A stretch of DNA of 64,000 bases from an uncultured Verrucomicrobia subdivision 3 bacterium (GCA_903865745.1 CAIPKV010000012.1:10953-74952); one strand, 5' to 3'. Counted from the first letter of the stretch, positions 15,282-39,321 are shown. The notes: generated by a model from the letters alone, not told the origin. Translations and numbers: made by a program.

Positions 15282-15343
15282 TAGAGGGGCGTGTCTCATA
15301 TCAGCCCAATAAACATTGGCTTGTATTGTTGTCAATTTTCTTG

Positions 15344-15372: not shown

Positions 15373-15378
15373 AAACCC

Positions 15379-21638: not shown

Positions 21639-24600
21639 TCAGGAAAAGTGCTCGCGCGCCTTGTCGAGAAACACCGGTAGCATCGTCCGCCGTTCGGGAT
21701 TGTTGTCAGGGTGAATGCACTCTTCCAAGGTTTCCCGCACACAGAGCAGAATACATTTCTTTCGGCATCGGCTGACGGCGGTATAGAGCCAGCGCCGGTT
21801 GGTAACGAGCGATTTGGTCATCACCACGATGCCGGTGTCGCACTCCACGCCCTGGGAAGAATGTCCGGTGCGGCACCACGGCCAGTCCACCTCGTCGAGT
21901 GTCAACCAGCCCACATTCTTCGAGCCATCGGCAGCCTTGTATGTGACTTGAATGGTGTCCGAGGCTTGCCCTGTGGTTACAGTGTCATCATAGACCGTCA
22001 CCAAGCTACCCTTTCGTATCTGGTAGGCAGCGGCCTTTGCCCCGACCTCCACCACCGCCAAAACATCACCTTTTTTGAAATCAAAAATCGTGGACTTATT
22101 GTGGCCAGCCGCCGCCCGCGCCATTTGGAGAATGTTCGAGTTCACCTTGAAGATGTCCGTGTGCCGAGGACAAAAGACCATGAAATTGGATTCCGGTGGA
22201 AGTGCGGTCACAAATCCGGCCGCCGCTTGCATGACCAGGAACTCGCTGGTCATATAATGCACCTCCATGCCTTGCCCGATTTTTCCCGGTACTTGGCCGA
22301 GATGGACTTGTTCAAAAAAATCAACAATGCCGCTGGACAGATGGTTGCTGGTTCGCCAATTGTGCGACAGCTGCGTCCCGGTCACTCCGGGTGTGCCGGG
22401 ATTTCTCTGTACCCACCTGACCAGGTCTTCCCCCACCAAACCCGGCCCGACCGGCATGTTTTGACCCGGCCCGACCGTGAGCAGCACGCGCTTGCCGGGA
22501 GCCCAGCTCATCGCCATCTGACCGGCCACGTCGCAATCCACCTGCCCAATCTCATCCCCGGCGAACACGTCGGCGTCCAAGGCGACGAAGCGTTTCTTTT
22601 GCTTGTGGGGCCTGATGTGATAGGTGGAGTGAATCGTTTCCACGGCCACGCGCTTATTGAGCCGTTCTCGCAGTTGCTGGGCACTTAAATGAGTGGCGCT
22701 GCCCACCCTTGTGACCAGCTTTTTATTCCGCGCAGCCTTCAACTCATTGGCGAGCGTTTCCGTCTTGCCGGTGCCGGGCGCACCGCTGATGACCTCGACG
22801 GAACCGCCGCCGGCACCTTGTTCAATGATCCGCCAGGCGAAGCGCAGTTCCCCGCGAACATAGTCGGCCCACCCGACCCAATCGCCTTTTTCGGGCACCC
22901 AGGCATTGCAGGAAAGGACATGCCGGGAGGCCAGCAGCCAATGCAATGACTGCAACAACCCTTCGTTGCCGAAAATCGCGATGAGCAGGTCGTAAAGGTG
23001 GCTGGACGAGTGGTACACGTCCCCATTTTCAGCCAGCCAAACTCTGACAAGTTCCAACAATAAATCACGCGGTAGCACTTCGTCATCAAACGGGTTTTTG
23101 AATTTCTGGGCGGCAGCGTGTTCCCTGTCCAGAGTTGCAAGCAGGTTGGTAAAACGCGGGTCGCCCTTCAAACGCTGTCGGATTTCCTTTTCGGTAATTG
23201 CCGGACGGGCGGGCGGAGTCTGGCTCTCCATTTGCCCGATTGCCAGCAGCGCCTCCATCGGCTTGAGTTTTTTCTTCTGGGGTTTCCGTGGTCTGGCTGC
23301 TGGGGTGTCATCGCAACTCATGGCGTCAATAATGTCGGGTGGCAGTTTGGAATAAATCTCGATGTTCTTTGAGCTGTCGCTGGCATCAGGCGAGTCCTCT
23401 GGTTTTGCAGGCCTGAGAAAGAACCAGACCGGGGCATCCCATTGGCTCTTGCGACCACGTTTTACCACGATGAAACCCATTTCCTTTAGTGCATCCCGGA
23501 CTGAGGTTTCTCCGTACGTCGTATGGGGGAGCACTTGAGAGATATGGAAGGTCATCTGTCCGCACTTCAGCACCGCCTTTTCCACCGCTGCCAGCACGGC
23601 ATCCGTTTCCCGAGCATATTTCTCGTAACAGCGTTCGATGTCCCGTTCCGTCCAGTCCTGCCAGGTCGCATATTTATTATGCGGAGCACCGTTCAACAAA
23701 AGCGCTTCGTTAAACGCCTTCTCGATTTCATCCAGTACCGGCTTGAATTCGGGAAGGGCAAAAACCAATTGTTTCGCCTTCCCCACTTTTACGCCCCGGT
23801 CCCAAAGAGACTTCCAGGACAGCAGGCAATTGATGTAAAGCCGCGTTCGGTCAGCCCTGTATTTGGTCATCGAGAGGTATTTTCCGCCGGAGCTGCGCGG
23901 CCCGATTTCCCGGCCTAGGTCTTTGCAAAATGTATTGAACGCCTTTTGCGGCAGGTCATTGAAGAGCTTTTGCACCCAAGCCAGGGGTTTCCCCAACACC
24001 TTCGCGATTTTTTCCTCTGACACGTTGTAGGCGCGCAACTGTAAAGCAGACACCTGCTCGCTCAACCCAGCCAGGCTGCCGCCCTGTTTACCCTGCTTGC
24101 CTTTGGCCGGCTTAGCTTGTGGCATCACCGAAATGGCGTCCTTGATGGTCTGGATTTCGACGTTGCCCATGAGCTTCTCCGGTCGCCAAAATGCAAAGGA
24201 TTCCAGGAATCGGGAGGGCCGGTTGCAATTCTTTGAAGCTCCTTCATCCAGACTAAGCGGCCCGGCATAGCCATTTGATTTAATTTCATCCCACAGACAG
24301 TACACGACCAGCTTGGCATCTTCCGTATCCACCCAGTCCGCAAAATAAATTCCGGCATGCACCCCGTTGGGCGTCTGGCCCGCCCAGGCGACCTCCGGAA
24401 TTTTTTCCAGCACGTTCAGCAGTTCGGCCTTTTCGCCGGGAGTCGCGCCCCGCCCCTTGACCCATTCGCCCTGGGCATTCTGCTTCTGTATTTCAAAATC
24501 CAATGTAAGGTCATGCCGCTTGCCGGGATTGATAGAACGATGCTTTCCCCGCTTTTGTTTTTCAATTTCAACTGGTTTGTCCGGGTCATCCCGCCGCCGC

Positions 24601-24836
24601 GCCTTGTCCAACAACTCCGGTGAAAAAATCGCGTTGACGTAGTACTCGAACTTGTAACCGCGAATTTTTAGCGCCCGGGAGTAGAGTTGAAAATTCCGCA
24701 ACTTGGTAATCTTATTTTGCGACACGAATACTTCGCCACGGGTGAGCTGCTGAATTTTCTGAATGTGCAGGTGCGAACCACCCAAGACAGGTGCGGTTGG
24801 TGGCGCTGACGGGGCGGATGGCGTGGTGGTGGACAT
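21639..24836 (-). CDS. AEP-type primase fused to a RecD-like SF1 helicase
   Basis: LTLDFE, QTPNGVH and LDEGASKNCNRPSR (AEP-like); SGAPGTGKT, GDEIGQ, TGHSSQGVE and LYTAVSR (RecD-like). Confidence 0.75.
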   Translation of the reverse strand: MSTTTPSAPSAPPTAPVLGGSHLHIQKIQQLTRGEVFVSQNKITKLRNFQLYSRALKIRGYKFEYYVNAIFSPELLDKARRRDDPDKPVEIEKQKRGKHRSINPGKRHDLTLDFEIQKQNAQGEWVKGRGATPGEKAELLNVLEKIPEVAWAGQTPNGVHAGIYFADWVDTEDAKLVVYCLWDEIKSNGYAGPLSLDEGASKNCNRPSRFLESFAFWRPEKLMGNVEIQTIKDAISVMPQAKPAKGKQGKQGGSLAGLSEQVSALQLRAYNVSEEKIAKVLGKPLAWVQKLFNDLPQKAFNTFCKDLGREIGPRSSGGKYLSMTKYRADRTRLYINCLLSWKSLWDRGVKVGKAKQLVFALPEFKPVLDEIEKAFNEALLLNGAPHNKYATWQDWTERDIERCYEKYARETDAVLAAVEKAVLKCGQMTFHISQVLPHTTYGETSVRDALKEMGFIVVKRGRKSQWDAPVWFFLRPAKPEDSPDASDSSKNIEIYSKLPPDIIDAMSCDDTPAARPRKPQKKKLKPMEALLAIGQMESQTPPARPAITEKEIRQRLKGDPRFTNLLATLDREHAAAQKFKNPFDDEVLPRDLLLELVRVWLAENGDVYHSSSHLYDLLIAIFGNEGLLQSLHWLLASRHVLSCNAWVPEKGDWVGWADYVRGELRFAWRIIEQGAGGGSVEVISGAPGTGKTETLANELKAARNKKLVTRVGSATHLSAQQLRERLNKRVAVETIHSTYHIRPHKQKKRFVALDADVFAGDEIGQVDCDVAGQMAMSWAPGKRVLLTVGPGQNMPVGPGLVGEDLVRWVQRNPGTPGVTGTQLSHNWRTSNHLSSGIVDFFEQVHLGQVPGKIGQGMEVHYMTSEFLVMQAAAGFVTALPPESNFMVFCPRHTDIFKVNSNILQMARAAAGHNKSTIFDFKKGDVLAVVEVGAKAAAYQIRKGSLVTVYDDTVTTGQASDTIQVTYKAADGSKNVGWLTLDEVDWPWCRTGHSSQGVECDTGIVVMTKSLVTNRRWLYTAVSRCRKKCILLCVRETLEECIHPDNNPERRTMLPVFLDKAREHFS

Positions 24837-25045
24837 GATTTATTTTATTGGTTTTAGCCTCTCAATGAAGAAAGTTTCGCAGGACTCCATTCTCATCGCG
24901 CAAAACCGGTTCCTCGGACTCGATGCCGTCAACCTCGACGACCCGTCCGACCGGGAACTGGTTTTGGCCAGTCCGCGATAGCCAACGCGAGGGCGCTCGC
25001 CGGCTATCTGGGGACCAGCGACAGCAGTCGAAAGAGTTTTCTCCT

Positions 25046-25080
25046 TCTCCCTTCCTCCGCACCACATGTGGTGGGCGATT
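25046..25080 (-). repeat. Repeat copy C (inverted relative to A and B)
   Basis: Reverse complement AATCGCCCACCACATGTGGTGCGGAGGAAGGGAGA; 31/35 identical to copy A. Confidence 0.88.
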
Positions 25081-25126
25081 AGCTCGTTCCCGCTCTGGCC
25101 GGAAGCTTTAGTGTTGGCGGGGTTGT

Positions 25127-26380
25127 TCATGGCAGTTTGAATAGAGGGACGGTTTGTTCCTCGATTCCAGCCCTTTTGCTTTGCTTTGGCTTAGGTGCTG
25201 TTAGAGGTTTTTTTGGCTTCGGCGGGGGCAAAGGTGTCCCTACATCTACGAGATTATCGACGGCAACTCCCAAGGAATACAATTTGCTTCTTAACAGGTC
25301 GTGTTCGGCTACCAATTCCATCGCCTTGCCCATGATTACGCCGCCATGATCGGTGGGGACATCGAGTTTCTTTTGGACGGAGCGTTTTTTTCTTTCCTCA
25401 TAAGCTGCCACATGGACGTAATTGACCTTCACTGTGCCTGCCAATTTCTTGAATTTATTTAGCCGTGCTTGAAGGTCGCTCCCGAAATAGCTGATTTCAG
25501 GGCCAATTACTTTCATGTCATTTGTGTCGTATTCGAAGGTTTCGATTCGGCTGAAGCTCTGTGGCGGGCCATCCGCCTTAACAACTCTCTCATCGTTTCC
25601 AAAAGCTAAGTCTCGAATTATCGGGGCCAAATATTTTTGCTTCCCGACATAGGCCGTGAAATCAAAACCCGGCGGGGAGTCTCGAATGTCCGCAATCGTT
25701 TTGAACGACGGCTTGCCGGACTTTAACAATCGCTCGGTGACATCGCCTACGCCGGGAATTTCGTTCACATCCAGCGGTGGTAAAATTGCGTCCCAGTCTT
25801 TGTCGTAGATGACGTTGATGCCGTCCGGGGCTTTTTGGTCGGTGGCAATCTTCGCCATCATCATATTTGAAGCAATGCCAATTTTGCAGTGCAGCTTCCG
25901 TTCCCGAAGGATTCGCACTTTGAGTTTTTCAGCCACCGGACGGGCCAGGTTCAAAGATTCGTCGGAAGTGGAGGCCTGGCAATAGGGGGTCAAATCGATG
26001 TACGCCTCATCCAATCCGACCGTTCCGATGGCCGGGTTGGTAATTCCCATTGCTGTCAGCTCGTCCTTGGTTAATTTGATGATTTCATCCGCCTCGTCCT
26101 CATAGGCCAGGGTTCTTGGGAGCAGCCAGGTCGCCGTCGGGCAGAGTTTGGCTGCCTGCAATGATGGCATTCCCTTCTTAACGCCAAAGTCTCTCGCCTC
26201 GGGGGTGGCCGTGGAAACCACCTTGCGCCGTCTTTTTTTTCCGACGATGACCGGCTTGCCCACCAGGTCAGGATGGTCCCGCAATTCCACCGACGCGAAA
26301 AAAGAGTTCATATCGAAAATCAGGATCACCCGGTATTTGAAATTGGCCGGGGGCGCTGAAGTTGTGACACAGGCGCTCAT
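25127..26380 (-). CDS. dinB: Y-family DNA polymerase IV
   Basis: FDMNSFFASVE, EARDFGVKKGM, GLDEAYID, PGVG HhH; C-terminal QTVPLF clamp-motif-like tail. Confidence 0.92.
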   Translation of the reverse strand: MSACVTTSAPPANFKYRVILIFDMNSFFASVELRDHPDLVGKPVIVGKKRRRKVVSTATPEARDFGVKKGMPSLQAAKLCPTATWLLPRTLAYEDEADEIIKLTKDELTAMGITNPAIGTVGLDEAYIDLTPYCQASTSDESLNLARPVAEKLKVRILRERKLHCKIGIASNMMMAKIATDQKAPDGINVIYDKDWDAILPPLDVNEIPGVGDVTERLLKSGKPSFKTIADIRDSPPGFDFTAYVGKQKYLAPIIRDLAFGNDERVVKADGPPQSFSRIETFEYDTNDMKVIGPEISYFGSDLQARLNKFKKLAGTVKVNYVHVAAYEERKKRSVQKKLDVPTDHGGVIMGKAMELVAEHDLLRSKLYSLGVAVDNLVDVGTPLPPPKPKKPLTAPKPKQSKRAGIEEQTVPLFKLP

Positions 26381-26387
26381 GCAATTT

Positions 26388-27947
26388 TCAGGGACTGCAT
26401 AACAATGCTGCCGCCGCCCGGATGCCTTCGTGGGCGTTTTTATTTTTGGCAATTGCCCGTGCCAGGTTCGCATTTTTTCCATCGCTGAGCCGGTTGAATA
26501 CCTGCGCCAGAATTTCAGGGTTTGTTATTTTTTCCGTTGCGATTGCCACCACATCCAAATTGGCATCCGTTAACGCCACTTTTTCCAATACATCCTGGGC
26601 GATGATGTCTCTCTTTACCGCCGCCTCACGAACGTTCAGCTCTTCGTCAAATGCAAGCTTGCCCAGAGTGCCCGGTTCTTTGGTCCGGCAAGCCACGATT
26701 TCTCTGAAATCAGGAACCTCACTGCTGGCAAATTTTTCCAAAACCTCCTCTGGCAGCCGTCGGCTTTGCAGGGCTTCAATCGCTTCGTGTGGCTCTCCAT
26801 TCAGCGCAATTCTGGCCACGGTTTCCGGCTTAACTTTTCTATTATGAACGATGTTATTAACGACATATTGACCAGGTTGGTCGGCAAATTCATCCAGGAT
26901 TTCAGGCGTGACGTCAGAACGCGAAACCACCCTATGTCGGCATATCCAATCTGTGTCCAGCCTCGGAAGCTGTTTGGCTATTTCTATGGGCAGCGCTTCA
27001 TTTTCAATTAGAGATTCAAGGATGTCTGTGCCCGAAAGCGGATAATTATTGATGTCCAGTCGTCCCGAAAGGAAGTCATCCGCCATTCGCGCAATTAACT
27101 TTTTGTCTTTGACTTCCCGGGCAGCAGCCAGCGTTTCTATTTCATTCAGCCCCCAACAGTGACCGTTAACCACCAGCGGCCAGTGTTTTCTCCAGTCGGC
27201 GTCGCGCGGCATCTCTTTGTTGTTCAGGTACACCGCATATTTTTCTCCATACTTATCACATAAGCTCCGCAGCACAGCGGGGTCTGTCACTCGATTGGCG
27301 TGTGACGCTGCCAAATCCAGATGCCTTCGCCCAATTTCGTTTATGACCGCCGTAGGCGTATGCTTATTATGGCAAATTGAAGACAAAACATTTTTATCAT
27401 CACATTTTGCCAGCATCCGAAGTGTCTCCGGGGAGTGGGTCAGGGTTGCCACGGCCCCTCTTATCTTCGGTTCCACATCGCTTGCAAAGCGGTCAATAGT
27501 TTCTTGTGCGAGCCTCCTGCTAAAAAGAGCTTCATAGGTCACATCTGGATCTGAGTGGCGAGCCAGTTTTTCAATTGTCTCCAACCTGGTGTTTGGGTTT
27601 TCGACGATCGAACGAATCCAGCAGCAGTTCCCAAATGCCGCCCATTTATCCAGCTCTTCAGGAGGCGCGTCTGTTCTCTTGCATAAATAGTAAGGGGGCT
27701 GCCAATGCTTTTTCCCGTATTTCGCCAATTCGTTGGCCTTTTCAAAAGGCAGAACTAAGTTTCTCACCAACATACCTATTAATTCGCCGCCATCAGTGAT
27801 GGGTTTGGCCAACAACTCATCAGCCATGCGGCATACTGTATCCAATTCTTTGGCTAGAAACGCGGCCTCTTTCGAGTGCACATCGTCAAGGCCCCAGGTC
27901 CAACCCTCGACCACAATAGGCTGTTCCGATTGCGGGGTAGCACTCAT
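26388..27947 (-). CDS. HEAT/LRV-like alpha-solenoid repeat protein
   Basis: Repeated NPNT..ETIEKLA..D..V..A units. Confidence 0.65.
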   Translation of the reverse strand: MSATPQSEQPIVVEGWTWGLDDVHSKEAAFLAKELDTVCRMADELLAKPITDGGELIGMLVRNLVLPFEKANELAKYGKKHWQPPYYLCKRTDAPPEELDKWAAFGNCCWIRSIVENPNTRLETIEKLARHSDPDVTYEALFSRRLAQETIDRFASDVEPKIRGAVATLTHSPETLRMLAKCDDKNVLSSICHNKHTPTAVINEIGRRHLDLAASHANRVTDPAVLRSLCDKYGEKYAVYLNNKEMPRDADWRKHWPLVVNGHCWGLNEIETLAAAREVKDKKLIARMADDFLSGRLDINNYPLSGTDILESLIENEALPIEIAKQLPRLDTDWICRHRVVSRSDVTPEILDEFADQPGQYVVNNIVHNRKVKPETVARIALNGEPHEAIEALQSRRLPEEVLEKFASSEVPDFREIVACRTKEPGTLGKLAFDEELNVREAAVKRDIIAQDVLEKVALTDANLDVVAIATEKITNPEILAQVFNRLSDGKNANLARAIAKNKNAHEGIRAAAALLCSP

Positions 27948-28603
27948 TTAGCCTTCTTCTTCACTGATGGTTTGGCCGCCCGGCCAATCTTCCTTCGCGT
28001 CGCGCGTTTTGCTTTCTTCTCAGATTTACCAGCCGGAGGGTGGGCAGCGTAGTGGTTTTTGCGCGCCAATAGCTGCAGGACCATTTCGTAGGGAATCAAA
28101 TCTGCCTTGCTGACATCATCGGCGGCTTTGGCCCCGTAGCAGACACGAAACAACTTCAGCAGCTCTTTTTCCTTCTCGATTCCAAGCAGTGTCCAGCCCT
28201 CTGGCCGGCCGGCAATCGGCTTCAATGCGTCCATGACTTTTTGCCGGCCTTGCTCGAAGGCCACAACTTTTGTCGAGGCTACTCCCATTTGTACATAATA
28301 CAGTTGCTCAGGTGTCGCTGCTTTGCGCGAGTAGCGCGGCCTGATCTGGTAGGCCTGCTGAAATGCCGTTATTTCAAGCAATCGCGGGGTGATTTCGGGC
28401 GATTTGTGAAGAATCCATGATTTGCGGACGAATGGTACGCGGCCGCCATGCACCAAATTGTGTCCCATCCCAATGAAGAGCAGGTAGGCATCGAGTTCCA
28501 ATTTCGCCTGATGCAGGTCAATTGGTGTAATTGCGTTGCCATCTTTGAACGAATCTTTGAACGAATGGCCCAACAGTTCAGGTGCGGAAGTTGATTTTGG
28601 CAT
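27944..28603 (-). CDS. Hypothetical protein
   Basis: Operonic ATGA overlap; basic C-terminal tail. Confidence 0.65.
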   Translation of the reverse strand: MPKSTSAPELLGHSFKDSFKDGNAITPIDLHQAKLELDAYLLFIGMGHNLVHGGRVPFVRKSWILHKSPEITPRLLEITAFQQAYQIRPRYSRKAATPEQLYYVQMGVASTKVVAFEQGRQKVMDALKPIAGRPEGWTLLGIEKEKELLKLFRVCYGAKAADDVSKADLIPYEMVLQLLARKNHYAAHPPAGKSEKKAKRATRRKIGRAAKPSVKKKAK

Positions 28604-28627
28604 ATTATTGATTTGTCATTGTTAAGG

Positions 28628-29779
28628 TTAAATTGTTTCTCGCAGTTTCATCCACAGTTTGCCCAGCCAGTTTTGACCGACCCACTGGCCGTTGATTTCG
28701 GCCATGCCCCAGTAAAAAGAATCTCCCCGGGGCCGCGCCGAGCAATCTTCGACAATCATTTTACGGCCCGTGGACTGTAGCAGTTTTTTTATTTCTTCGT
28801 GCTGCTCCCATTTCAGCCGGAGGCATTGGCGCATGATTTCCAGATCCACGTCCGAGTCGGGATTTTCCAGCAGACGGCGGTTCTTCTTGGCAATCATCTT
28901 GACGCCCATTGGCGACTTGCAAGCTGCCAGCTGCTTTTGAATGGCCGGGTGCCCGTCAAACCGCAGCACTTGAAACAGCGCTTCTGAAGTCCGATAGGTC
29001 ACGCCTTTGTGCAAAACGGAATGGGCCGACATGTTGCCCAACGCCCCGTATGGTTCATTGACGGCCCGTATCAAAACCATTTCCGGCATCTTCGGCAGCA
29101 CCGCCTTGTCCGCGATGGCTTTGTCCAGTTGCCGCAACAATTCCTTTTTGTCATCGGCTTCGGCCAGACTCTTCAGCTCGCGCAGCCAGGTCAAAAAAAT
29201 GTCCAAATCTGTGGTGTACGACTTCGGCGTGTAATAAGAATTCGGGCTTTTGACGGGCATCAATTTTACCACCGCCGCCCGAATCGTCGCCGCCGTCAAC
29301 ACTTGGCCGGGGGAATTCTTTGCCGCCGCCTGAAGCACCTTGACGCGCTCCTTTGGTTTCGCCCGGAGCAATTCGCGCATCTGGCCCTCGGTCTTCGGCA
29401 GTACAACCGTGCCAATTGGCACGGTCTTGAGGTCGGCTTCCAGTTTAGAAAATGCTTCGGCGGAGCGGACCAATCGGGTGCCGTAGTTGGCCGTAAAATC
29501 GAATCTGTCTCGGCAGTATGCCTCAAAAGTGGAATGTGTTTTCCGGTAAAGCTCTTCTTCTCGGATGTGCCAAAGCGCCTTGCAGACCTCGACAAATTTG
29601 TCGCCATGTTCGCGGATCACGGCCTCAAGTTGCTGCAGCCGCTTCTCCTGCTTTTCACCTAATTTTTGCAGTGGTTTTTCGACGTCGCCGTTTTGTCCGT
29701 TGCCGTTTCGAGCCGACGATTTTTCTATCGCCGCCTCCCTGCGCGCCGCTGGTGGTTTGCTGGTGGAATTCGTTTTCAT
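28628..29779 (-). CDS. DUF3102-like N-terminal domain fused to a NADAR (YbiA-like) domain
   Basis: LGNM...YRTSEALFQ...KWEQH..IKKLLQSTG..IVED...DSFYWG...GQNWLGKLWMKLR. Confidence 0.85.
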   Translation of the reverse strand: MKTNSTSKPPAARREAAIEKSSARNGNGQNGDVEKPLQKLGEKQEKRLQQLEAVIREHGDKFVEVCKALWHIREEELYRKTHSTFEAYCRDRFDFTANYGTRLVRSAEAFSKLEADLKTVPIGTVVLPKTEGQMRELLRAKPKERVKVLQAAAKNSPGQVLTAATIRAAVVKLMPVKSPNSYYTPKSYTTDLDIFLTWLRELKSLAEADDKKELLRQLDKAIADKAVLPKMPEMVLIRAVNEPYGALGNMSAHSVLHKGVTYRTSEALFQVLRFDGHPAIQKQLAACKSPMGVKMIAKKNRRLLENPDSDVDLEIMRQCLRLKWEQHEEIKKLLQSTGRKMIVEDCSARPRGDSFYWGMAEINGQWVGQNWLGKLWMKLRETI

Positions 29780-30423
29780 CCGCTTCCGAATGCCGATATT
29801 CCAGCATATTTAATGCCGTCAATACCGGTAATCCCCTTGCCATCAAAGGATTTTATCGCGCCCCGCCTGCCCGGTGCCGGCGCGTTTTTGATGGCACAAC
29901 AATTTTTGTTTTCAGCTTTACGATTTTTGCCGGTCAGAATTTTTCCGCTCGAATCAAATTGCCGGGACTGGCAGCCGTTGCCGCCCACCAGCTGTGGGTT
30001 GTTTCCCGCCAATACCACCGGGTTTCTCCCGCCACACGAGCCAAGCATCCCACGACCGGAATCAGTGCCATTCATCGCTCCGCTGTTCATCGCCCGACTG
30101 GTGACGCACCCCTTGTGCTGGTTTCCCAAATCGGCACGGCAGTTCCCCTGATTCTGCACCCGGCTGGCTTTTCCGTCTGAGTGGTCCGGTCGGTTAGTCG
30201 TGTTGCTCACCGTTATCTTTCCACCGCCTCTCGTTCCGCCGTTCCAGTTGCTCCGCGCATCGTTCACGCCATCGTTCCTCTGTCATTCCGTTGCTACTGC
30301 TCCGCCGCCTTGCTCTCTGTCCCTACCGGCTGCCGTTTGCCGCGTCATCGGGTCGTTTGTTTTAAGTCCCTTGTGAAAAACAAAACGCCCCGACAACCGG
30401 GGCCAACTAGAAAGAAAAAACGT

Positions 30424-30693
30424 ATGAGCAAACAAACGAACAAACCTGCAACCGCAACCAACACGCCGGAATCGAACAAGCCGGTTCACGAAATCCGGGT
30501 CAATGGCATCCGTGCCACCATCTGGAAAAACGACACCGACAAGGGGCCGCGTTTCAACACCACGTTCGAGCGCAGCTACCGCGACGGGGAAGAATGGAAG
30601 AAAACCGATTCCTACGGTCGCGAGGATTTGCTGGTTCTCGCGTATGTGGCGAAAGAAGCGTTCCGCTGGATTGTCAGCCAAAACAACAAGTAA
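30424..30693 (+). CDS. Small plasmid/ICE protein (putative ssDNA-binding)
   Basis: PVHEIRVNGIRATIWKN...TFERSYRDGEEWKKTDSY family pattern. Confidence 0.65.
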   Translation: MSKQTNKPATATNTPESNKPVHEIRVNGIRATIWKNDTDKGPRFNTTFERSYRDGEEWKKTDSYGREDLLVLAYVAKEAFRWIVSQNNK

Positions 30694-30740
30694 CCCACAA
30701 CGGCTGGCGGTCGGCAACGGCCGCCAGCCCCTTCAAATTT

Positions 30741-31019
30741 ATGATTCTCGCACAACCAAAATTTCCACTCGGCCAAATCGTGGCCACGCCGCACGCCCTG
30801 GGTAAATTGTCGGCTGCCGAAATTACCAACGCGCTGAACCGCCACCAGGCGGGCGACTGGGGCGACCTGGACAAAGATGACAAGTTGGAAAACGACATCG
30901 CCCTCGAAAAAGGTTTCCGCATTTTGTCGGCTTACACCGGCAACGACGGCATCAAATTCTGGATCATCACCGAATCGTCGCGGGCGGTCACGACCGTCCT
31001 ACTGCCGGAAGATTATTGA
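30741..31019 (+). CDS. Plasmid-related small protein
   Basis: FPLGQIVATPHAL...RHQAGDWGDL...RILSAY...TTVLLPEDY. Confidence 0.8.
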   Translation: MILAQPKFPLGQIVATPHALGKLSAAEITNALNRHQAGDWGDLDKDDKLENDIALEKGFRILSAYTGNDGIKFWIITESSRAVTTVLLPEDY

Positions 31020-31100: not shown

Positions 31101-34100
31101 ATGCCGAGCCGGGATGTTCAGGACTTTATCGCCCATTGGTCTGCCGCCAGCGCGTCCGAACGGGCCAACTCGCAACCGTTCCTTTTGGAACTGTGCGACC
31201 TGCTCGGTGTCCCCCGACCCGACCCGCATCCAGACAAAGGATATTTTTTCGAGTTTCCAATCGTTGAGCACCATCCCGATGGCACCACCAGCAACGGGCG
31301 TATTGACCTGTATCGCCGCGCGCATTTCGTTCTCGAATCCAAGCAGTTTCAGGAGCAGAAAGCCGAGGCCAGCCAGCTTGAACTCGCCGCCCAAGAAGCG
31401 GGCGTAGTCACTCGCAAAAAATCTTCCCAGCCCGTGCGCGGCACCGGCGCATGGGATGATGCGATGATGAAAGCGCGCGGCCAAGCCGAGCGATACGTCC
31501 GCGCCATTCCAGACGACAATCCCCCATTCATCATCGTCGTGGATGTCGGCCACTCGTTTGAAATCTACGCCGATTTTTCACAGGCCGGCAAAGCCTACCT
31601 GCCGTTTCCTGATCCGCGCACGTTCCGCGTCCGGCTCGCCGACCTTGCCGATGAAAAAATCCGCGAACGACTCCGGCTCATCTGGACTGACCCCGCCGCG
31701 CTCAACCCGGCGAAACGCTCTGCCGATGTCACCCGCGAAGTGTCCGGCCATCTGGCGGAACTTGCCAAATCTTTGGAGCAGGCCGGACACGAACCCGACA
31801 TCGTCGCTCAATTTCTCACGCGCTGTCTGTTTTGCATGTTCGCGGAGGATGTCGAATTGCTTCCCAAGGACAGCTTCACCGATTTGCTGGAATCACTGCC
31901 GGCCAACGGCGAAGGCTTTGAGGATGTCATGCGCCAGTTGTTCCGTGAAATGAACACCGGCACCGGCAAAGGCATCTCGGTTGTCTTACGGAAAAAATTG
32001 CTTCACTTCAACGGCGGGCTATTCGCTGACGATACCGTTTTGCCCATCAACGGACTGCAACTCGGCTTGCTCAAAGAAGCCGCCCGCCAGAATTGGGGCA
32101 ACGTCGAACCAGCCATTTTCGGCACGTTGTTGGAACGCGCCTTGAACCCGAACGAACGCCACCAGCTTGGCGCGCACTACACCCCGCGCGCCTACGTCGA
32201 ACGGCTGGTATTGCCCACCGTCATTGAACCGCTTCGTTCCGAATGGGAAAACGTCCGCGCCGCCGCACTGACCAAAGCCCGTGCGGGCGACCTGAAAAAA
32301 GCCCGCGCCGAGGTGAACGAGTTCCACGAACGCCTTTGCAAAGTCACTGTCCTCGACCCCGCTTGCGGCTCCGGCAATTTCCTTTACGTTGCTTTGCAAC
32401 ACTTGAAAGTCTTGGAGGGTGAAGTATTCGACGTGGCCGCGCAATTCGGCGATACGTTCCGGCTGGAATTGGAACGGCAGACAGTTGACCCGCATCAGTT
32501 CCTGGGCATTGAAATCAATCCGCGTGCGGCTTCCATTGCGGAGCTGGTTTTGTGGATTGGCTATTTGCAATGGCATTTCCGGTTGCACGGCAAACGCACG
32601 CCGCCGGAACCGATTTTGCGCGCGTTCAAAAATATTCAATGCCGTGACGCCGTATTGGAATACGACGGCGAACCGCAACCCGCCCGTGACGATGCCGGCA
32701 AAGATATCACTGTTTGGGACAGGCGCAGCAAAAAAACCGACCTTGTTACTGGCCGCGAAGTGCCGGATGAAACCAAGCGAGTGCCGTTGCTGACCTACAA
32801 AAATCCACGCCAGGCACAATGGCCATCGGCAGATTACATCGTCGGCAATCCGCCATTCATCGGCACGGCGCGGATGCGGGAAGATTTGGGCGATGGCTAT
32901 GCCGAGACACTGCGCGCAACTTATCCCGCCGTGCCGGAATCTGCTGATTTTGTTTTGTATTGGTGGCACAAGGCCGCCGAATCGACCCGCGCCGGCAAGG
33001 TGAATCGCTTTGGCCTCATCACCACCAACAGCTTACGTCAGACTTTTGCCCGGCGCGTGGTGCAGGCGCAACTATCCGCCAAGCCGCCGCTGTCTTTGCT
33101 CTTTGCCATTCCTGACCATCCGTGGGTGGACACGGCGGAAGGTGCGGCGGTGCGGATCGCGATGACTGTCGGCGCGGCGGGCGAACTGCCCGGCGAACTA
33201 CTGGAAGTGACCGGCGAAGAACCGCAGCCCGACGGTTCGGAAATAGTTTCATTCAAATCACATGTTGGAAAAATTTCCGCCGACCTTACCACCGGCGCGG
33301 ATGTAACGACCGCAGTTGAACTCAGGGCGAATGAAAATCTGACAAGTAGAGGCATGATGTTGTTTGGCGATGGGTTCATCGTCACGCCAGAAGAAGCCGA
33401 AAAACTTGGACTCGGAAAAGTTGGTGGCCTCGAAAAAATAATCCACCCGTATCGCAATGGACGCGATTTGGCAGACAAACCGCGCGGCGCATTTGTAATT
33501 GATTTGTTTGGACTGACGCCAAATCAAGTGCGTGACCAATATCCAGGGGTTTATCAACACGTTTTAACTCGCGTAAAACCAGAGCGTGACGCAAACCGTG
33601 ACAAATCAATCAGGGAAAACTGGTGGATTTTCGGACGGCCACGCACTGAAATACGTCCCGCGCTGGTCGGCATTTCGAGATACATTGCGACAGTTGAAAC
33701 ATCCAAACACCGTATATTTCAATTTCTCGAATCTGAAATTTTGCCGGACAACAAACTCGTCGTAATTGCACTTGATGATGGTTTCCATCTTGGCGTTTTA
33801 AGCAGTCGCATTCACGTTGTCTATTCGCTCGCCGCTGGCAGTTGGCTAGGCGTTGGCAACGACCCAGTTTATGCGAAGTCGCGCTGCTTCGATCCTTTTC
33901 CATTTCCGCTTTCCACCGAGGCGGAGCAAAAGTCGATCGGTAAGCTGGCGGAGAAATTGGACGCGCACCGCAAGCGCGTGCAAGCACAGCACGGCCTCAC
34001 TCTCACCGGCATTTACAACGTCCTCGAAAAAATCCGCGCCGGCGAAAAACTCACCGACAAGGAAAAAGTCATCCACGACGCCGGCCTCGTTTCCGTGCTG

Positions 34101-34556
34101 AAGCAGTTGCACGACGACCTCGATGCCGCCGTGTTCGCCGCCTACGGCTGGCCGGCCACGCTGACCGACGCCGAGATTTTGGAACGCCTGGTTGCCTTGA
34201 ACGCCGAGCGCGCCGCCGAGGAAAAGCGCGGCGTAATCCATTGGCTCCGCCCGGACTACCAAACCAAGTTGAATCCGGGTGTCACGCTTCCCGCCGAACT
34301 GCCATTCTCGCTCGACAAAAAATCCAAAAAGGCGAAAGCCACGGCGCAAAAGCCAAAGGGCAAGGAATCATGGCCGAAGAAAATGGCCGAGCGCGTGCAG
34401 GTGGTCGAAGCGGTGTTGCATCGCATCGGCACGGCCACGCCCGCCGAGTTGGCCGTGCAAATCAAACGTGCCAAGCCCGCCGATGTTGCCGAGATTTTGG
34501 AAACGCTCGTCACCATGGGCCGCGCCCGCGAGAAGAACGGAAAATTCAGCCGGTGA
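31101..34556 (+). CDS. MmeI-like type IIL/IIG restriction-modification enzyme (N6-adenine MTase)
   Basis: ERANSQPFL...GRIDLY...VLESK nuclease; VLDPACGSGNFL motif I; GNPPF motif IV; TRD. Confidence 0.9.
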   Translation: MPSRDVQDFIAHWSAASASERANSQPFLLELCDLLGVPRPDPHPDKGYFFEFPIVEHHPDGTTSNGRIDLYRRAHFVLESKQFQEQKAEASQLELAAQEAGVVTRKKSSQPVRGTGAWDDAMMKARGQAERYVRAIPDDNPPFIIVVDVGHSFEIYADFSQAGKAYLPFPDPRTFRVRLADLADEKIRERLRLIWTDPAALNPAKRSADVTREVSGHLAELAKSLEQAGHEPDIVAQFLTRCLFCMFAEDVELLPKDSFTDLLESLPANGEGFEDVMRQLFREMNTGTGKGISVVLRKKLLHFNGGLFADDTVLPINGLQLGLLKEAARQNWGNVEPAIFGTLLERALNPNERHQLGAHYTPRAYVERLVLPTVIEPLRSEWENVRAAALTKARAGDLKKARAEVNEFHERLCKVTVLDPACGSGNFLYVALQHLKVLEGEVFDVAAQFGDTFRLELERQTVDPHQFLGIEINPRAASIAELVLWIGYLQWHFRLHGKRTPPEPILRAFKNIQCRDAVLEYDGEPQPARDDAGKDITVWDRRSKKTDLVTGREVPDETKRVPLLTYKNPRQAQWPSADYIVGNPPFIGTARMREDLGDGYAETLRATYPAVPESADFVLYWWHKAAESTRAGKVNRFGLITTNSLRQTFARRVVQAQLSAKPPLSLLFAIPDHPWVDTAEGAAVRIAMTVGAAGELPGELLEVTGEEPQPDGSEIVSFKSHVGKISADLTTGADVTTAVELRANENLTSRGMMLFGDGFIVTPEEAEKLGLGKVGGLEKIIHPYRNGRDLADKPRGAFVIDLFGLTPNQVRDQYPGVYQHVLTRVKPERDANRDKSIRENWWIFGRPRTEIRPALVGISRYIATVETSKHRIFQFLESEILPDNKLVVIALDDGFHLGVLSSRIHVVYSLAAGSWLGVGNDPVYAKSRCFDPFPFPLSTEAEQKSIGKLAEKLDAHRKRVQAQHGLTLTGIYNVLEKIRAGEKLTDKEKVIHDAGLVSVLKQLHDDLDAAVFAAYGWPATLTDAEILERLVALNAERAAEEKRGVIHWLRPDYQTKLNPGVTLPAELPFSLDKKSKKAKATAQKPKGKESWPKKMAERVQVVEAVLHRIGTATPAELAVQIKRAKPADVAEILETLVTMGRAREKNGKFSR

Positions 34557-34563
34557 AAGCGTC

Positions 34564-35217
34564 ATGGATGTCCATGTCAAAATCCGTTTGCGCCTGAAGC
34601 TGAAAAAGCTGGAAACGCTCCACACAATTCTTCAGTCGTTCGCAAAGCATTCCCCAGGTTGGAAATGTGCACCAAAACAATCAGCTGATTATCAGAAGAT
34701 GCACGGAGCGCCGGCTGGATTCGTGGTTTGTGATTCGGTGCAAAGATTGGCACGAGCGGCAGTCGCGATTGCAAATGTGAACGAGAAGCATCCGCATAGC
34801 TTTGAAGTCACCAACATCGTCCCGCAGGAATGTTCCAGCCTCACGATGTCAGAATACAACGGCATCGGCACTGCATTTGCCAAGTCATTTAAGTTGTTTC
34901 TCAAATCCACGCGGCGCGACGGTGTTGTAAACATGGTTGGCCCAAAAATCAGTTTGGACAAAATCATTACCGCGCCTAAGTGCCGCCGATTTTTTGAAAA
35001 CTGGTTACAGACTCCAACGCCAACCAGCCACCCGTCTGATGTTCACGCGTTGGATAATTTCATCTGCGCCATTTTTCGGCATGGTGCTGATGTTGATTTG
35101 AACCGCCTAGGGCGACATCTGGTTGACGACCGCAAGTGGAAGGCCGATTCCGCCGCATGGGCAATGGAGCGAATCCAAACTGGTCTTGATGTTTTGCGTG
35201 CCAACCAGGGATTTTAA
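34564..35217 (+). CDS. Hypothetical protein
   Basis: 217 aa between the RM gene and the HEPN gene. Confidence 0.7.
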   Translation: MDVHVKIRLRLKLKKLETLHTILQSFAKHSPGWKCAPKQSADYQKMHGAPAGFVVCDSVQRLARAAVAIANVNEKHPHSFEVTNIVPQECSSLTMSEYNGIGTAFAKSFKLFLKSTRRDGVVNMVGPKISLDKIITAPKCRRFFENWLQTPTPTSHPSDVHALDNFICAIFRHGADVDLNRLGRHLVDDRKWKADSAAWAMERIQTGLDVLRANQGF

Positions 35218-35253
35218 TTGTGTCAACCAAATGAATGATTTGAGCAATGTGTT

Positions 35254-37245: not shown

Positions 37246-37252
37246 TGCAAAA

Positions 37253-38410: not shown

Positions 38411-39321
38411 CCATGAGCCACGGCAAACCATACCCAACACAAACGGCGGAAGAAGTTGTCAGCGCCGCCTTGAACGAGCAGGGCTATCTATTTCAGCATA
38501 AAATTATTCGGGTGCTGCAATCCCCAACCAGCGCAGGAAGCCCCAAACATGAATGGTATGTTGAAGCTTCCGAGGTGCCAGTGTCATTGCCCAACGGTGA
38601 CGAGACGCGCGTGGACATCGTTTTGAAGCATCGTTACAGCCAGCCGGATAATCCGTGGCACATTGTCATGGAGTGCAAACGGGCGGCACGGGATTACAAG
38701 CGCTGGGTATTTTTCTCGAAAATAAAATACGCCAAGGGGCCGTGGCCTAATCAATACTACACCGAATACGCGCGATTGTCCGGGGGGTGGAATCACCAAG
38801 GCGAGCCGCCTATGACACACACGGTGGATTTGACGACGGCAGACAGTGACTGCCCCGTTTTTGATTTTGGCGTTGAAGCGCGAATTGAGCCGCCGGGACG
38901 GGATAAGCGCGCATCGGCCACCGATGCGATTGAAGATGCGTTGCGCCAAGTGACCCTGGGGCAGACCGGCCTGGCCAACACCTTGCGCCGCGCACATTCC
39001 CTGATGATCCGGCTCATTCCCGTTGTAGTGACGACTGCGGAGTTGATGGCCGCAGATTTTGACGATGAAAAAATATCGTTGGCCGGCGGCAAAATTGAAC
39101 CCAATGATTTGAAGCTTGAGCCAAGAAAATGGCTGGCCATCAATTATCGTATCAGCAATGTCATCGCCCAATTTTCCGGCGTGAACACCAACCTGACCAC
39201 TTCGATTGCCCAGCATCTTGGCTCGCGCCAAGTCAGGACGGTGTTTGTCGTGCAGGCCGAACACATCCAACCATTTCTCGAATGGCTGGAAAAGTATTTT
39301 CCCTGCGGCGCACAGCGTTGA
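38407..39321 (+). CDS. Putative PD-(D/E)xK nuclease
   Basis: ETRVDIVL...IVMECKR. Confidence 0.55.
   Translation: MTMSHGKPYPTQTAEEVVSAALNEQGYLFQHKIIRVLQSPTSAGSPKHEWYVEASEVPVSLPNGDETRVDIVLKHRYSQPDNPWHIVMECKRAARDYKRWVFFSKIKYAKGPWPNQYYTEYARLSGGWNHQGEPPMTHTVDLTTADSDCPVFDFGVEARIEPPGRDKRASATDAIEDALRQVTLGQTGLANTLRRAHSLMIRLIPVVVTTAELMAADFDDEKISLAGGKIEPNDLKLEPRKWLAINYRISNVIAQFSGVNTNLTTSIAQHLGSRQVRTVFVVQAEHIQPFLEWLEKYFPCGAQR

What the first reader, a model, noticed from the sequence alone, without database searches (positions are those of the whole stretch)
25127..29779. NADAR - unknown - HEAT/LRV - DinB operon feeding directly into the primase-helicase
Seen: four tightly coupled minus-strand genes (gaps of 24 nt or less, or overlaps) co-oriented with the replication gene. 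DinB keeps its catalytic motifs and has a QTVPLF tail. No ImuA/ImuB or UmuD partner was seen, and no Verrucomicrobia-type LexA box (TGTTC-N4-GAACA) was found by eye upstream. Inference: a lesion-tolerant replication module (primase + helicase + translesion polymerase + de-ADP-ribosylase + scaffold), possibly a minimal self-synthesising replisome.
Basis: inference. Interest (0 to 1): 0.62.

Follow-up and report, generated by a model that had tools for sequence, protein, structure and literature searches.

The report
NADAR–DinB operon of mobile element
A rare family of integrated mobile DNA elements in Verrucomicrobia-type bacteria always places a lesion-bypass DNA polymerase (DinB), usually headed by an enzyme that strips ADP-ribose from DNA, just upstream of its own primase-helicase; this probably lets the element copy chemically attacked DNA, but it is not a self-sufficient replication machine.

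Summary
Four minus-strand genes are tightly packed (24-nt gap, 4-nt overlap, 7-nt gap): N-domain+NADAR (383 aa), an orphan helical protein (219 aa), a two-unit LRV/HEAT solenoid (519 aa) and a DinB-type Y-family polymerase (417 aa from ATG 26380). DinB has intact catalytic motifs and a QTVPLF tail. One correction: 290 non-coding bases separate DinB from the primase-helicase here. About 12 distinct metagenomic relatives keep the order NADAR head – p219 family – LRV family – DinB – primase-helicase. Two DinB lineages and two primase-helicase lineages occur in all four combinations, and adjacency is always kept. Element DinBs form one clade, and every full-length one ends in a sliding-clamp-binding-like tail (QxxLF/QxxxLF; one has E for Q). 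This points to dependence on the host clamp, so "self-synthesising replisome" is not supported. The genome has no LexA/UmuD homologue, no DarT and no other NADAR, while DarT occurs in 8% of genomes of the phylum. Best reading (inferred): an establishment and replication operon that reverses N2-guanine ADP-ribosylation (NADAR) and bypasses what remains (DinB). The roles of the two orphan proteins are unknown. It is a new variant of known kinds, of moderate interest.

The parts
30192..30421 (-). Conserved non-coding leader between the divergent p87 gene and the operon. It includes the hairpin GGCCCCGGTTGTCGGGGC plus a T-run at 30403-30387. It is a probable divergent promoter or operator region; oriT is not excluded.
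   Evidence: It is 87% identical to L003:2-228, whereas the adjacent NADAR protein is only 67% identical. The motif was found in 4 more metagenome contigs: between the p87 and NADAR genes in L030 and L031, upstream of the NADAR head gene in L029 (whose contig starts at the motif), and next to p87 in L028. The 163-aa ORF over it is low-complexity and probably not coding. No Rfam match.
28628..29779 (-). Head gene, 383 aa. It has a conserved N-domain of unknown family (about residues 35-235) fused to a NADAR domain (242-383).
   Evidence: Pfam NADAR E 6e-20. The alignment to E. coli YbiA (2b3w) keeps both conserved Glu residues and the D..WG motif. NCBIfam DS32_2 scores 102 bits, below its cut-off of 240. 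It is the only NADAR in the genome. The N-domain recurs in other architectures and has no significant family.
27944..28603 (-). p219, an orphan all-alpha protein with a disordered Lys/Arg-rich C-terminal tail.
   Evidence: Only 6 clusters in 5.8 billion proteins. Paralogues sit in the same operons. The AlphaFold2 core has pLDDT above 90. No fold match in PDB or BFVD.
26388..27947 (-). rep519, a tandem of two ~260-aa units. Each unit is a beta-hairpin (GWxWGL) followed by a run of short helices (LRV/HEAT-like solenoid).
   Evidence: Only 12 clusters in 5.8 billion proteins. The internal duplication is seen by tblastn. The profile hits 1LRV at E 9e-5. AlphaFold2 pLDDT 88. Foldseek returns PP2A-A, CAP-G and importin-alpha. 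Single-unit 267-281-aa versions occur in relatives.
25127..26380 (-). Element-clade DinB/Pol IV-type Y-family DNA polymerase, 417 aa, with a C-terminal clamp-binding-like tail QTVPLF.
   Evidence: IMS and IMS_C domains. Catalytic Asp and Asp-Glu residues and the Phe steric gate are present. It is monophyletic with 13 element relatives, SH-aLRT 94. Tails are conserved. NCBIfam Pol IV equivalog cut-offs are not reached.
24837..25126 (-). Non-coding spacer between DinB and the primase-helicase. It holds the palindrome ACCACATGTGGT (about 25070), one copy of the element's repeated site.
Evidence: The sequence was read directly. orf96 has no protein-level conservation apart from its last 24 codons, which lie next to the primase-helicase start in L007. 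Relatives have no spacer. The two direct copies of the repeat appear as family D4; this inverted copy was read directly.
21639..24836 (-). 1065-aa primase-helicase. The RecD-like SF1B helicase half was confirmed here.
   Evidence: AAA_19, AAA_30 and UvrD_C_2 domains. RecD2 match E 7e-24. Relatives of 31-66% identity always lie downstream of DinB.
30430..30693 (+). p87, a small divergently transcribed gene flanking the conserved leader. Its function is unknown.
   Evidence: 79-80% identical copies lie next to the hairpin motif in L028, L030 and L031. No family match.

Best explanation
The four genes form the promoter-proximal part of a conserved early operon. The operon belongs to a rare family of integrative mobilisable elements that carry a tyrosine integrase, a MobA/VirD2-like relaxase and a primase fused to a RecD-like helicase.

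The operon combines direct reversal and bypass of DNA base adducts with the element's own priming and unwinding enzyme.

Shown here:
- The operon is real and conserved.
- The NADAR domain keeps its conserved Glu residues.
- DinB keeps its active site.
- Every complete element DinB ends in a QxxLF/QxxxLF-type peptide (one has E in place of Q). This is the form of the bacterial beta-clamp-binding motif.

Inferred:
- When the element enters a cell as single-stranded DNA or replicates, ADP-ribosyltransferases of the DarT1 type can modify guanine N2. Other minor-groove N2-dG adducts can also form.
- NADAR hydrolyses the ADP-ribose.
- DinB, tethered to the host beta clamp at primers laid down by the primase-helicase, inserts dC opposite adducts that remain. 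Complementary-strand and element synthesis can then be completed by the host replicase.
- The LRV/HEAT solenoid and p219 are element-specific adaptors. Their partners are unknown. p219's basic tail suggests nucleic-acid contact.

The module depends on the host clamp and the host replicase. It is not autonomous.
For: Synteny:
- The order NADAR head, p219 family, LRV family, DinB, primase-helicase is seen in about 12 distinct relatives.
- DinB is present in 8 of 8 loci that reach that far.
- The primase-helicase lies no more than one gene after DinB in 6 of 6 loci that reach that far.

Shuffling: DinB types A and B and primase-helicase types I and II occur in all four combinations, with adjacency kept.

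DinB:
- Element DinBs form one clade (SH-aLRT 94), far from the host's own Y-family polymerase.
- Catalytic motifs are present in 14 of 14 sequences. LF-type tails are present in 13 of 13 complete sequences.

NADAR:
- It is intact and is the only NADAR in the genome.
- In relatives it is fused to a radical-SAM domain. That domain's weak best matches, all far below curated cut-offs, are PA0069, Rv2578c, 'mobile pair B' and spore-photoproduct-lyase families. I recall these as DNA-repair-type radical-SAM enzymes; that is from memory, not tested.

Literature:
- DarT1 links ADP-ribose to guanine N2 in ssDNA, and NADAR reverses this (PMC11543638).
- Orphan phage NADARs (AdfN) defeat DarTG1, and phage DNA-polymerase mutations allow replication of ADP-ribosylated DNA (PMC11825919).
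- Pol kappa, the eukaryotic DinB orthologue, efficiently bypasses N2-ADPR-dG by inserting dC (PMC11359729).

Ecology: DarT genes occur in 32 of 401 genomes of the phylum, in 28 of 185 genera. The present host has none.
Against: - No biochemical or expression data exist for any of these proteins.
- One relative (5BG8NPxa) shows the operon p218, DinB, 268 aa, primase-helicase without a NADAR head gene. NADAR and DinB are therefore separable.
- In E. coli, deleting dinB, polB and umuDC did not increase the toxicity of DarT2, which ADP-ribosylates thymine (PMC7003065). Bypass of ADP-ribosyl lesions by bacterial TLS polymerases is thus unproven.
- NADARs of viruses have also been proposed to act on small ADP-ribose derivatives rather than on DNA (PMC9503650).
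- The N-domain is not demonstrably DNA-binding.
- The clamp-binding reading of the tail rests on motif form and position only.
Confidence: 0.5

Rival explanations
1. DinB is a constitutive subunit of the element's replisome, not mainly a damage-tolerance enzyme. In this reading it extends the primers made by the AEP-type primase, a role like that of Pol alpha, and passes them to the host clamp and Pol III. It might even copy the small element itself, with the solenoid and p219 as bridging subunits.
For: DinB is the one gene always next to the primase-helicase. The two are translationally coupled in L009 (4-nt overlap) and 11 nt apart in L003/L004. The DinB clade is old within the element family. 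No other polymerase was found among the element genes scanned.
Against: Y-family polymerases are distributive and error-prone; this is established knowledge of the family. DinB and primase-helicase lineages recombine freely, which argues against a co-adapted physical complex. The tail points to the host clamp rather than to an element partner.
Confidence: 0.2
2. The genes are functionally independent. They are merely co-transcribed from the early promoter. NADAR, p219 and the solenoid would be interchangeable anti-defence accessory genes, acting against DarT or against ADP-ribose-derived immune signals. DinB would be a general stress-survival or mutagenesis gene, like plasmid-borne TLS polymerases.
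For: The head gene is highly variable: 383 to 1444 aa, with or without a radical-SAM domain and a C-terminal domain. The copy number of p219 and LRV units varies. NADAR is absent from one relative's operon. Phage NADARs are early accessory genes (PMC9503650, PMC11825919).
Against: The same order persists across elements whose proteins have diverged to 30-60% identity and whose other cargo differs. NADAR and a DinB/pol-kappa-type polymerase share one specific lesion class, N2-dG adducts (PMC11543638, PMC11359729).
Confidence: 0.2
3. The head of the operon is itself a toxin-antitoxin or defence system. NADAR would act as the antitoxin, as in DarT1-NADAR, YarT-YbiA or DS-32. p219 or the solenoid would be a new toxin or effector.
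For: The NADAR domain's best NCBIfam hit is the DS-32 NADAR. A weak PADLOC hit to PDC-M42C was found. NADARs are known antitoxins (PMC11543638, PMC11125620, bioRxiv 10.1101/2025.01.08.631726).
Against: No ADP-ribosyltransferase or phosphoribosyltransferase domain was found in the operon. p219 is all-alpha with no ART-like fold match. The DS-32 score is far below its cut-off (102 vs 240 bits). The genes sit in the replication operon rather than among the element's defence cargo, which begins at the MmeI-type R-M gene at 31101.
Confidence: 0.07
4. The adjacency is due to chance, or this is an ordinary host operon.
For: None beyond the absence of experimental data.
Against: Synteny is conserved in about 12 relatives and in four recombinant combinations. 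The genes lie between a relaxase and integrase backbone and a defence cargo.
Confidence: 0.02

Closest known systems
Orphan NADAR anti-DarT factor AdfN of T-even phages (PMC11825919) and DarT1-NADAR toxin-antitoxin pairs (PMC11543638)
   Same: A NADAR-domain protein with conserved catalytic Glu residues is carried by a mobile element without a cognate DarT. It sits in an early or leading gene position.
   Different: Here NADAR is fused to a ~200-aa N-domain. In relatives it is also fused to a radical-SAM domain and a ~600-aa C-terminal domain. The carrier is an integrative mobilisable element, not a phage. NADAR is linked in an operon to a TLS polymerase. Its activity has not been tested.
Mobile-element-borne Y-family polymerase operons (plasmid and ICE mucAB, impAB, rumAB/umuDC type; from general knowledge) and phage DinB-like polymerases (phrog_1268)
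   Same: A translesion polymerase is encoded by a mobile element and uses the host sliding clamp.
   Different: The enzyme is DinB-type, not UmuC-type (UmuC model 39 bits vs cut-off 431). It has no UmuD-like partner, and no LexA exists in the host. It sits in the replication operon just upstream of a primase-helicase, with two orphan partner families.
E. coli DinB (Pol IV), M. smegmatis DinB1 and eukaryotic Pol kappa
   Same: Same fold and catalytic residues. The best PDB matches are DinB1 structures (E 7e-34). It has a C-terminal clamp-binding-type peptide. Pol kappa is known to bypass N2-ADPR-dG (PMC11359729).
   Different: It is only about 30-38% identical to ordinary DinBs. It falls below all NCBIfam Pol IV equivalog cut-offs. 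It forms a separate, fast-evolving clade restricted to these elements. It has a conserved N-terminal extension (..P.P.G.FKFRVIL).
Herpesvirus helicase-primase (UL5/UL52/UL8) and plasmid primase-helicases such as pRN1 ORF904 or P4 alpha
   Same: A mobile element brings its own primase and helicase and relies on a separate polymerase.
   Different: The adjacent polymerase here is a Y-family enzyme, not a processive replicase. No accessory processivity factor is encoded.
Leucine-rich-repeat-variant protein 1LRV and HEAT/ARM scaffolds such as PP2A PR65
   Same: A solenoid of short helices. The profile hits 1LRV at E 9e-5, and Foldseek hits PP2A-A at E 6e-6.
   Different: A private family of 12 clusters. 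It has a two-unit architecture, and each unit opens with a GWxWGL beta-hairpin. TM-scores to known scaffolds are low (0.3 or less). The Pfam LRV model is not reached (12.6 vs 21.6 bits).

Membership tests
Y-family DNA polymerase, DinB/Pol IV branch | IMS catalytic domain and IMS_C little finger above Pfam cut-offs | tested here: met
   IMS 132 bits (cut-off 23.2) and IMS_C 38.9 bits (cut-off 20.7).
Y-family DNA polymerase, DinB/Pol IV branch | Catalytic Asp (motif I), Asp-Glu (motif III) and an aromatic steric gate | tested here: met
   DMNSFFASVE at residue 23 and GLDEAY at residue 122, aligned to DinB1 6jun. The motifs are kept in 14 of 14 element DinBs.
Y-family DNA polymerase, DinB/Pol IV branch | Equivalog-level match to curated Pol IV models | tested here: not met
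   The best model, NF002882, scores 196 bits against a cut-off of 389. All ten Pol IV models are below cut-off. The protein is DinB-like but a divergent lineage.
Y-family DNA polymerase, DinB/Pol IV branch | C-terminal beta-clamp-binding motif (QL[SD]LF, QLxLxL or delta-type QAMSLF form; consensus recalled from memory) | tested here: inconclusive
   Tails QTVPLF, QPLSLF, QTLPLF, QAMTLF, QIRLF/QIKLF and ELTLF lie at the extreme C-terminus in 13 of 13 complete sequences. Binding to DnaN was not tested.
Y-family DNA polymerase, DinB/Pol IV branch | SOS (LexA) regulation | tested here: not met
   No LexA box in the leader. No Peptidase_S24 gene in the genome.
NADAR (YbiA-like) ADP-ribosyl-guanine glycohydrolases | NADAR domain above the Pfam cut-off with the conserved Glu residues | tested here: met
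   72.5 bits against a cut-off of 35.1. TSE.. and IVED align to the YbiA 2b3w Glu positions. The residue roles are taken from PMC11543638.
NADAR (YbiA-like) ADP-ribosyl-guanine glycohydrolases | Hydrolysis of N2-ADP-ribosyl-guanine in DNA | not testable with these tools
   This needs an enzyme assay.
DarT-NADAR toxin-antitoxin system | Adjacent DarT (PF14487) toxin gene | tested here: not met
   No DarT in the whole genome. The same search finds DarT in 32 of 401 phylum genomes, so the method works.
DS-32 defence system (NADAR + PRTase) | DS32_2 equivalog score and a phosphoribosyltransferase partner | tested here: not met
   102 bits against a cut-off of 240. No PRTase domain in the operon.
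UmuDC/MucAB/RumAB-type mutagenesis operon | UmuC-subfamily polymerase with a UmuD-like S24 partner | tested here: not met
   The UmuC model scores 39.5 bits against a cut-off of 431. No Peptidase_S24 in the genome.
ImuA-ImuB-DnaE2 mutasome | Catalytically dead ImuB-type Y-family protein with ImuA and DnaE2 neighbours | tested here: not met
   The catalytic residues are intact. The neighbours are p219, the LRV protein and the primase-helicase. The whole genome was not searched for DnaE2.
LRV / HEAT-like alpha-solenoid repeat proteins | Repeated short helix pairs forming a solenoid, with sequence similarity to LRV repeats | tested here: met
   The profile hits 1LRV at E 9e-5. The AlphaFold2 model shows more than 35 short helices. 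Foldseek returns HEAT/ARM hits down to E 8e-7. The single-sequence Pfam LRV match is sub-threshold.
Self-synthesising mobile elements (casposons, pipolins) | Element-encoded processive (family B) replicative polymerase | tested here: not met
   The only polymerase in the operon is Y-family.

The most novel reading that the evidence does not exclude
A Y-family polymerase has been recruited as a fixed subunit of a mobile-element replisome. In this reading DinB is the dedicated enzyme that takes over AEP-made primers and couples them to the host clamp. The private solenoid (two peptide-binding-type units) and p219 would bridge polymerase, primase-helicase and DNA, in the way the UL8-type accessory subunit does in herpesviruses. 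The NADAR, radical-SAM and kinase-like head protein would clean the template ahead of it. This would be a previously undescribed type of hybrid replisome in which lesion bypass is the default mode of synthesis.
Probability: 0.15. Interest if true: 0.85.

Novelty: new variant of a known kind. Interest (0 to 1): 0.55.

Why it matters
If the reading is right, this is the first conserved module in which a mobile element pairs an eraser of DNA ADP-ribosylation with a polymerase of the type known to bypass that same lesion, N2-ADP-ribosyl-guanine. Both are wired into the operon of the element's own primase-helicase.

It would extend the DarT/anti-DarT conflict from phages to conjugatively mobilised elements, which enter cells as the single-stranded DNA that DarT enzymes attack.

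It would also give a natural system to test whether bacterial DinB enzymes bypass ADP-ribosylated guanine. That is an open point, because E. coli TLS polymerases did not help against the thymine-specific DarT2.

Finally, it defines two orphan protein families, p219 and the GWxWGL-LRV solenoid, whose only known context is next to this DinB. They are candidates for new TLS-polymerase accessory factors.

Tried and rejected
- Megablast of the operon against phage and plasmid collections gave no match.
- The search for related loci in species genomes with rep519 and with the primase-helicase gave no relatives. A protein search of 400 genomes of the phylum found only generic RecD2 helicases. The family is known only from metagenomic contigs plus this genome.
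- The 451-aa DinB start was rejected in favour of ATG 26380. Relatives and the collection's own gene call support the shorter start.
- The 96-aa ORF between DinB and the primase-helicase, and the 163-aa ORF upstream of NADAR, were rejected as genes. The first has no protein-level conservation. The second overlies a stretch conserved at the DNA level.
- p219 was searched against PDB and BFVD folds, PDB sequence profiles and four HMM libraries. Nothing was found.
It is not confirmed.
- I considered the solenoid as the receptor for the element's FDPFDL C-terminal tails. No such tails were found in relatives that do have the solenoid, so the idea is unsupported.
- Direct repeats that would mark the element's ends were not found.
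- Promoter and terminator consensus scans were at chance level.
- Rfam found nothing in the leader.
The record behind L030 is not held.

Full report
**1. What is in the sequence**

Between 29779 and 25127 the minus strand carries four open reading frames.
- The first (29779-28628, 383 aa) has a NADAR domain at residues 242-383 (Pfam E 6e-20, 72.5 bits against a cut-off of 35.1). A ~200-residue N-domain precedes it.
- The second (28603-27944, 219 aa) matches nothing in Pfam, PHROGs, NCBIfam or PADLOC.
- The third (27947-26388, 519 aa) also has no family above threshold.
- The fourth is a DinB-type Y-family polymerase (IMS E 2e-38, IMS_C E 1e-9).

The longest DinB frame starts at 26482. The start shared with relatives and with the public gene call is ATG 26380, giving 417 aa.

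With that start the spacings are 24 nt, a 4-nt ATGA overlap and 7 nt.

- DinB keeps DMNSFFASVE and GLDEAY, aligned to the catalytic Asp and Asp-Glu of M. smegmatis DinB1.
- The protein ends EEQTVPLFKLP.
- No TGTTC-N4-GAACA site with 2 or fewer mismatches lies in the leader, and such sites are not enriched in the window (23 found, 31 expected).

One correction is needed. DinB does not run straight into the primase-helicase here. A 290-nt spacer (25126-24837) lies between them. Its 96-aa ORF is not conserved as protein. The spacer carries the palindrome ACCACATGTGGT. Earlier notes tie that palindrome to the primase-helicase, and its two direct copies appear as repeat family D4.

**2. The two unannotated proteins**

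The 519-aa protein belongs to a family of only 12 clusters among 5.8 billion proteins.
- It is an internal duplication of a ~260-aa unit.
- A profile of the family hits the leucine-rich-repeat-variant structure 1LRV at E 9e-5.
- AlphaFold2 (pLDDT 88) predicts two halves. Each opens with a small beta-hairpin (GWxWGL) followed by a run of short helices.
- Foldseek returns HEAT/ARM scaffolds (PP2A PR65, CAP-G, importin-alpha) at E down to 8e-7, though with low TM-scores.

The 219-aa protein has 6 clusters of close relatives, plus divergent paralogues in the same operons.
- It folds confidently (core pLDDT above 90) into an all-alpha domain with a disordered Lys/Arg-rich tail.
- It has no match in PDB or in the viral structure library.

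**3.

I looked up contigs encoding relatives of rep519 and of DinB, and scanned metagenomes for a conserved leader motif. Together these gave about 12 distinct related loci. The order is always the same:
- a head gene with N-domain+NADAR;
- one or two p219-family genes;
- one to three LRV-family genes, either two-unit (425-527 aa) or single-unit (267-281 aa);
- DinB;
- zero or one small gene;
- the primase-helicase.

L003 is the fullest sister element recovered. Its relaxase is 87% identical and its integrase 77% identical to those in the window.

DinB is present in 8 of 8 loci that extend far enough. The primase-helicase follows within one gene in 6 of 6. In L009 the two genes overlap by 4 nt, and in L003/L004 they are 11 nt apart.

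NADAR heads the operon wherever the 5' end is visible, with one exception. In 5BG8NPxa the gene upstream of the p219-like gene is on the other strand.

The head gene varies widely (383, 393, 734, 782, 1014, 1407 and 1444 aa).
- A search of 1.8 billion representatives shows N-domain+NADAR alone. It also shows the same core with an N-terminal radical-SAM domain and/or a ~600-aa C-terminal extension.
- The radical-SAM part is weakly closest to the PA0069, Rv2578c, 'mobile pair B' and spore-photoproduct-lyase families. All scores are far below the curated cut-offs. I recall these as DNA-repair-type radical-SAM enzymes. That is from memory and is only a hint.

**4. Modular shuffling**

Pairwise identities show two DinB lineages and two primase-helicase lineages.
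- DinB type A: window and L009, 82% identical. Type B: L003 and L007, 41% identical. A versus B is 31-33%.
- Primase-helicase type I: window and L007, 66%. Type II: L003 and L009, 92%. I versus II is 31%.

All four combinations exist: A+I, A+II, B+I and B+II. Recombination has therefore exchanged the partners repeatedly, yet a DinB always sits in front of the primase-helicase.

This is strong evidence that the presence of a DinB at this position is selected. It also argues against lineage-specific co-adaptation between DinB and the primase-helicase.

In a maximum-likelihood tree the 14 element DinBs form one clade (SH-aLRT 94). The stem is long. The clade is separate from ordinary DinBs and far from the host's own Y-family polymerase on another contig.

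**5. The tail**

Every complete element DinB ends in QTVPLF, QPLSLF, QTLPLF, QAMTLF, QIRLF/QIKLF or ELTLF, within five residues of the C-terminus. A variable, often Pro/Lys-rich linker precedes the tail.

From my knowledge of bacterial clamp-binding motifs (QL[SD]LF; delta subunit QAMSLF), this is the expected form and position of a beta-clamp-binding peptide.

The polymerase therefore most likely works on the host sliding clamp. No clamp, clamp loader or processive polymerase was identified among the element genes scanned against family libraries. 'Minimal self-synthesising replisome' is not supported.

**6. Host context**

- The genome (97% complete) has no Peptidase_S24 gene, so no LexA and no UmuD. 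The same search rings in 10 of 14 control genomes. This explains the missing LexA box.
- It has no DarT and no NADAR other than this one.
- DarT is common among potential hosts: 32 of 401 genomes of the phylum and 28 of 185 genera.
- The element's flank holds defence cargo, including an MmeI-type R-M enzyme and a NERD protein.

**7. Mechanism**

Published work provides a shared-lesion logic.
- DarT1 attaches ADP-ribose to N2 of guanine in single-stranded DNA, and NADAR removes it (PMC11543638).
- Orphan NADARs of T-even phages (AdfN) defeat DarTG1. Another phage escapes DarTG2 through DNA-polymerase mutations that allow replication of ADP-ribosylated DNA (PMC11825919).
- Pol kappa, the eukaryotic DinB orthologue, bypasses N2-ADPR-dG efficiently by inserting dC (PMC11359729).

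The window's NADAR keeps the two conserved Glu residues when aligned to YbiA.

A mobilisable element enters recipients as single-stranded DNA, which is the substrate of DarT enzymes. It must then be primed and converted to duplex.

I therefore read the operon as an establishment and replication module. NADAR erases guanine ADP-ribosylation. Clamp-tethered DinB bypasses residual N2-dG adducts at primers made by the primase-helicase. The host replicase does the bulk synthesis.

What is shown and what is inferred:
- Shown: the conserved operon, the intact motifs, the conserved tail and the ecological presence of DarT.
- Inferred: the substrates, the timing and the clamp binding.
- Unknown: the partners of the solenoid and p219.

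Counter-evidence:
- One relative lacks NADAR.
- E. coli TLS polymerases did not mitigate the thymine-specific DarT2 (PMC7003065).
- Viral NADARs may act on small ADP-ribose derivatives (PMC9503650).

**8. Rivals**

- (a) DinB as a constitutive primer-extension subunit of the replisome (0.2). The invariable adjacency favours it. The enzymology of the family and the free shuffling disfavour it.
- (b) Functionally independent early accessory genes (0.2). The variable head favours it. The persistent order and the shared lesion class disfavour it.
- (c) A NADAR-antitoxin TA or defence system (0.07). No transferase domain was found, and the DS-32 model scores 102 bits against a cut-off of 240. The published DS-32 system pairs NADAR with a PRTase (bioRxiv 10.1101/2025.01.08.631726).
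- (d) Chance (0.02). This is already contradicted by the synteny.

**9. Comparison with what is known, and novelty**

Translesion polymerases on plasmids, ICEs and phages are known, and so are orphan anti-DarT NADARs in phages.

What I found no description of in the papers I read:
- their fixed combination in one operon;
- the position of a DinB-clade enzyme immediately upstream of an AEP-primase/RecD-helicase gene across recombinant backbones;
- the two private partner families.

I rate this a new variant of known kinds, of moderate interest. It offers a directly testable hypothesis: bacterial DinB bypass of N2-ADP-ribosyl-guanine, and anti-DarT protection of mobilised single-stranded DNA.

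**10. Limits**

- All relatives are metagenomic contigs, several without retrievable DNA.
- The tree used a quick search and has long branches.
- Consensus scans for promoters and terminators were at chance level.

Noticed in passing
window 30192-30421 (minus strand); L003:2-228; L028-L031: A ~230-nt non-coding stretch upstream of the NADAR gene is 87% identical between elements whose adjacent proteins are only 38-67% identical. It contains the hairpin GGCCCCGGTTGTCGGGGC followed by a T-run. The motif lies between the p87 and NADAR genes in L030 and L031, upstream of NADAR in L029, and next to p87 in L028. It is a candidate divergent promoter or operator, oriT, or leader RNA. No Rfam family matches.
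   Followed up: partly
relatives: P0143, P0147, P0140, L006:2-3094, L005:1-1212: In sister elements the NADAR head protein grows to 716-1444 aa. It gains an N-terminal radical-SAM domain, weakly closest to the PA0069, Rv2578c and spore-photoproduct-lyase families. It also gains a ~600-aa C-terminal region whose motifs (…SNYVLHP…VMIDPD…) look like a protein-kinase-like fold. This multi-domain enzyme appears to be undescribed.
   Followed up: partly
window 30430-30693 (+) and 30674-30922 (-): Two small conserved genes (87 aa and 82 aa) converge and overlap by about 20 nt next to the leader. Copies 58-80% identical accompany the hairpin motif in L028, L030 and L031. Neither has a family match in Pfam or NCBIfam.
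   Followed up: partly
whole genome G000: The 97%-complete genome has no Peptidase_S24 gene, so no recognisable LexA or UmuD. It nevertheless has two Y-family polymerases: the element's, and a 434-448-aa one on contig C53 with a long C-terminal extension.
   Followed up: partly
window 31101-39321: Directly beside the element backbone lies a defence-type cargo. It comprises an MmeI-type R-M fusion (1151 aa), a 663-aa protein with no family, a NERD-domain protein (425 aa; weak PglW/MkoA hits) and a 304-aa protein. Further on there are an RHS-repeat protein (42502-47448) and a DDE transposase (49986-51431).
   Followed up: no
A 449-aa ORF with a weak integrase match (11408-12757) overlaps its 3' part. 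The element's own integrase (15316-16428) is 2.5 kb away, behind LysM/TPR and ABC-transporter genes. The attachment site remains unclear, and no flanking direct repeats were found.
   Followed up: partly
relative contig of P0023 (ERZ1426827, 33 kb): In one sister element an ARPP-1 (PF20208) gene and an SNF2/PLD helicase lie just upstream of the divergent small genes and the 734-aa NADAR head gene. This may be further ADP-ribose-related cargo.
   Followed up: no
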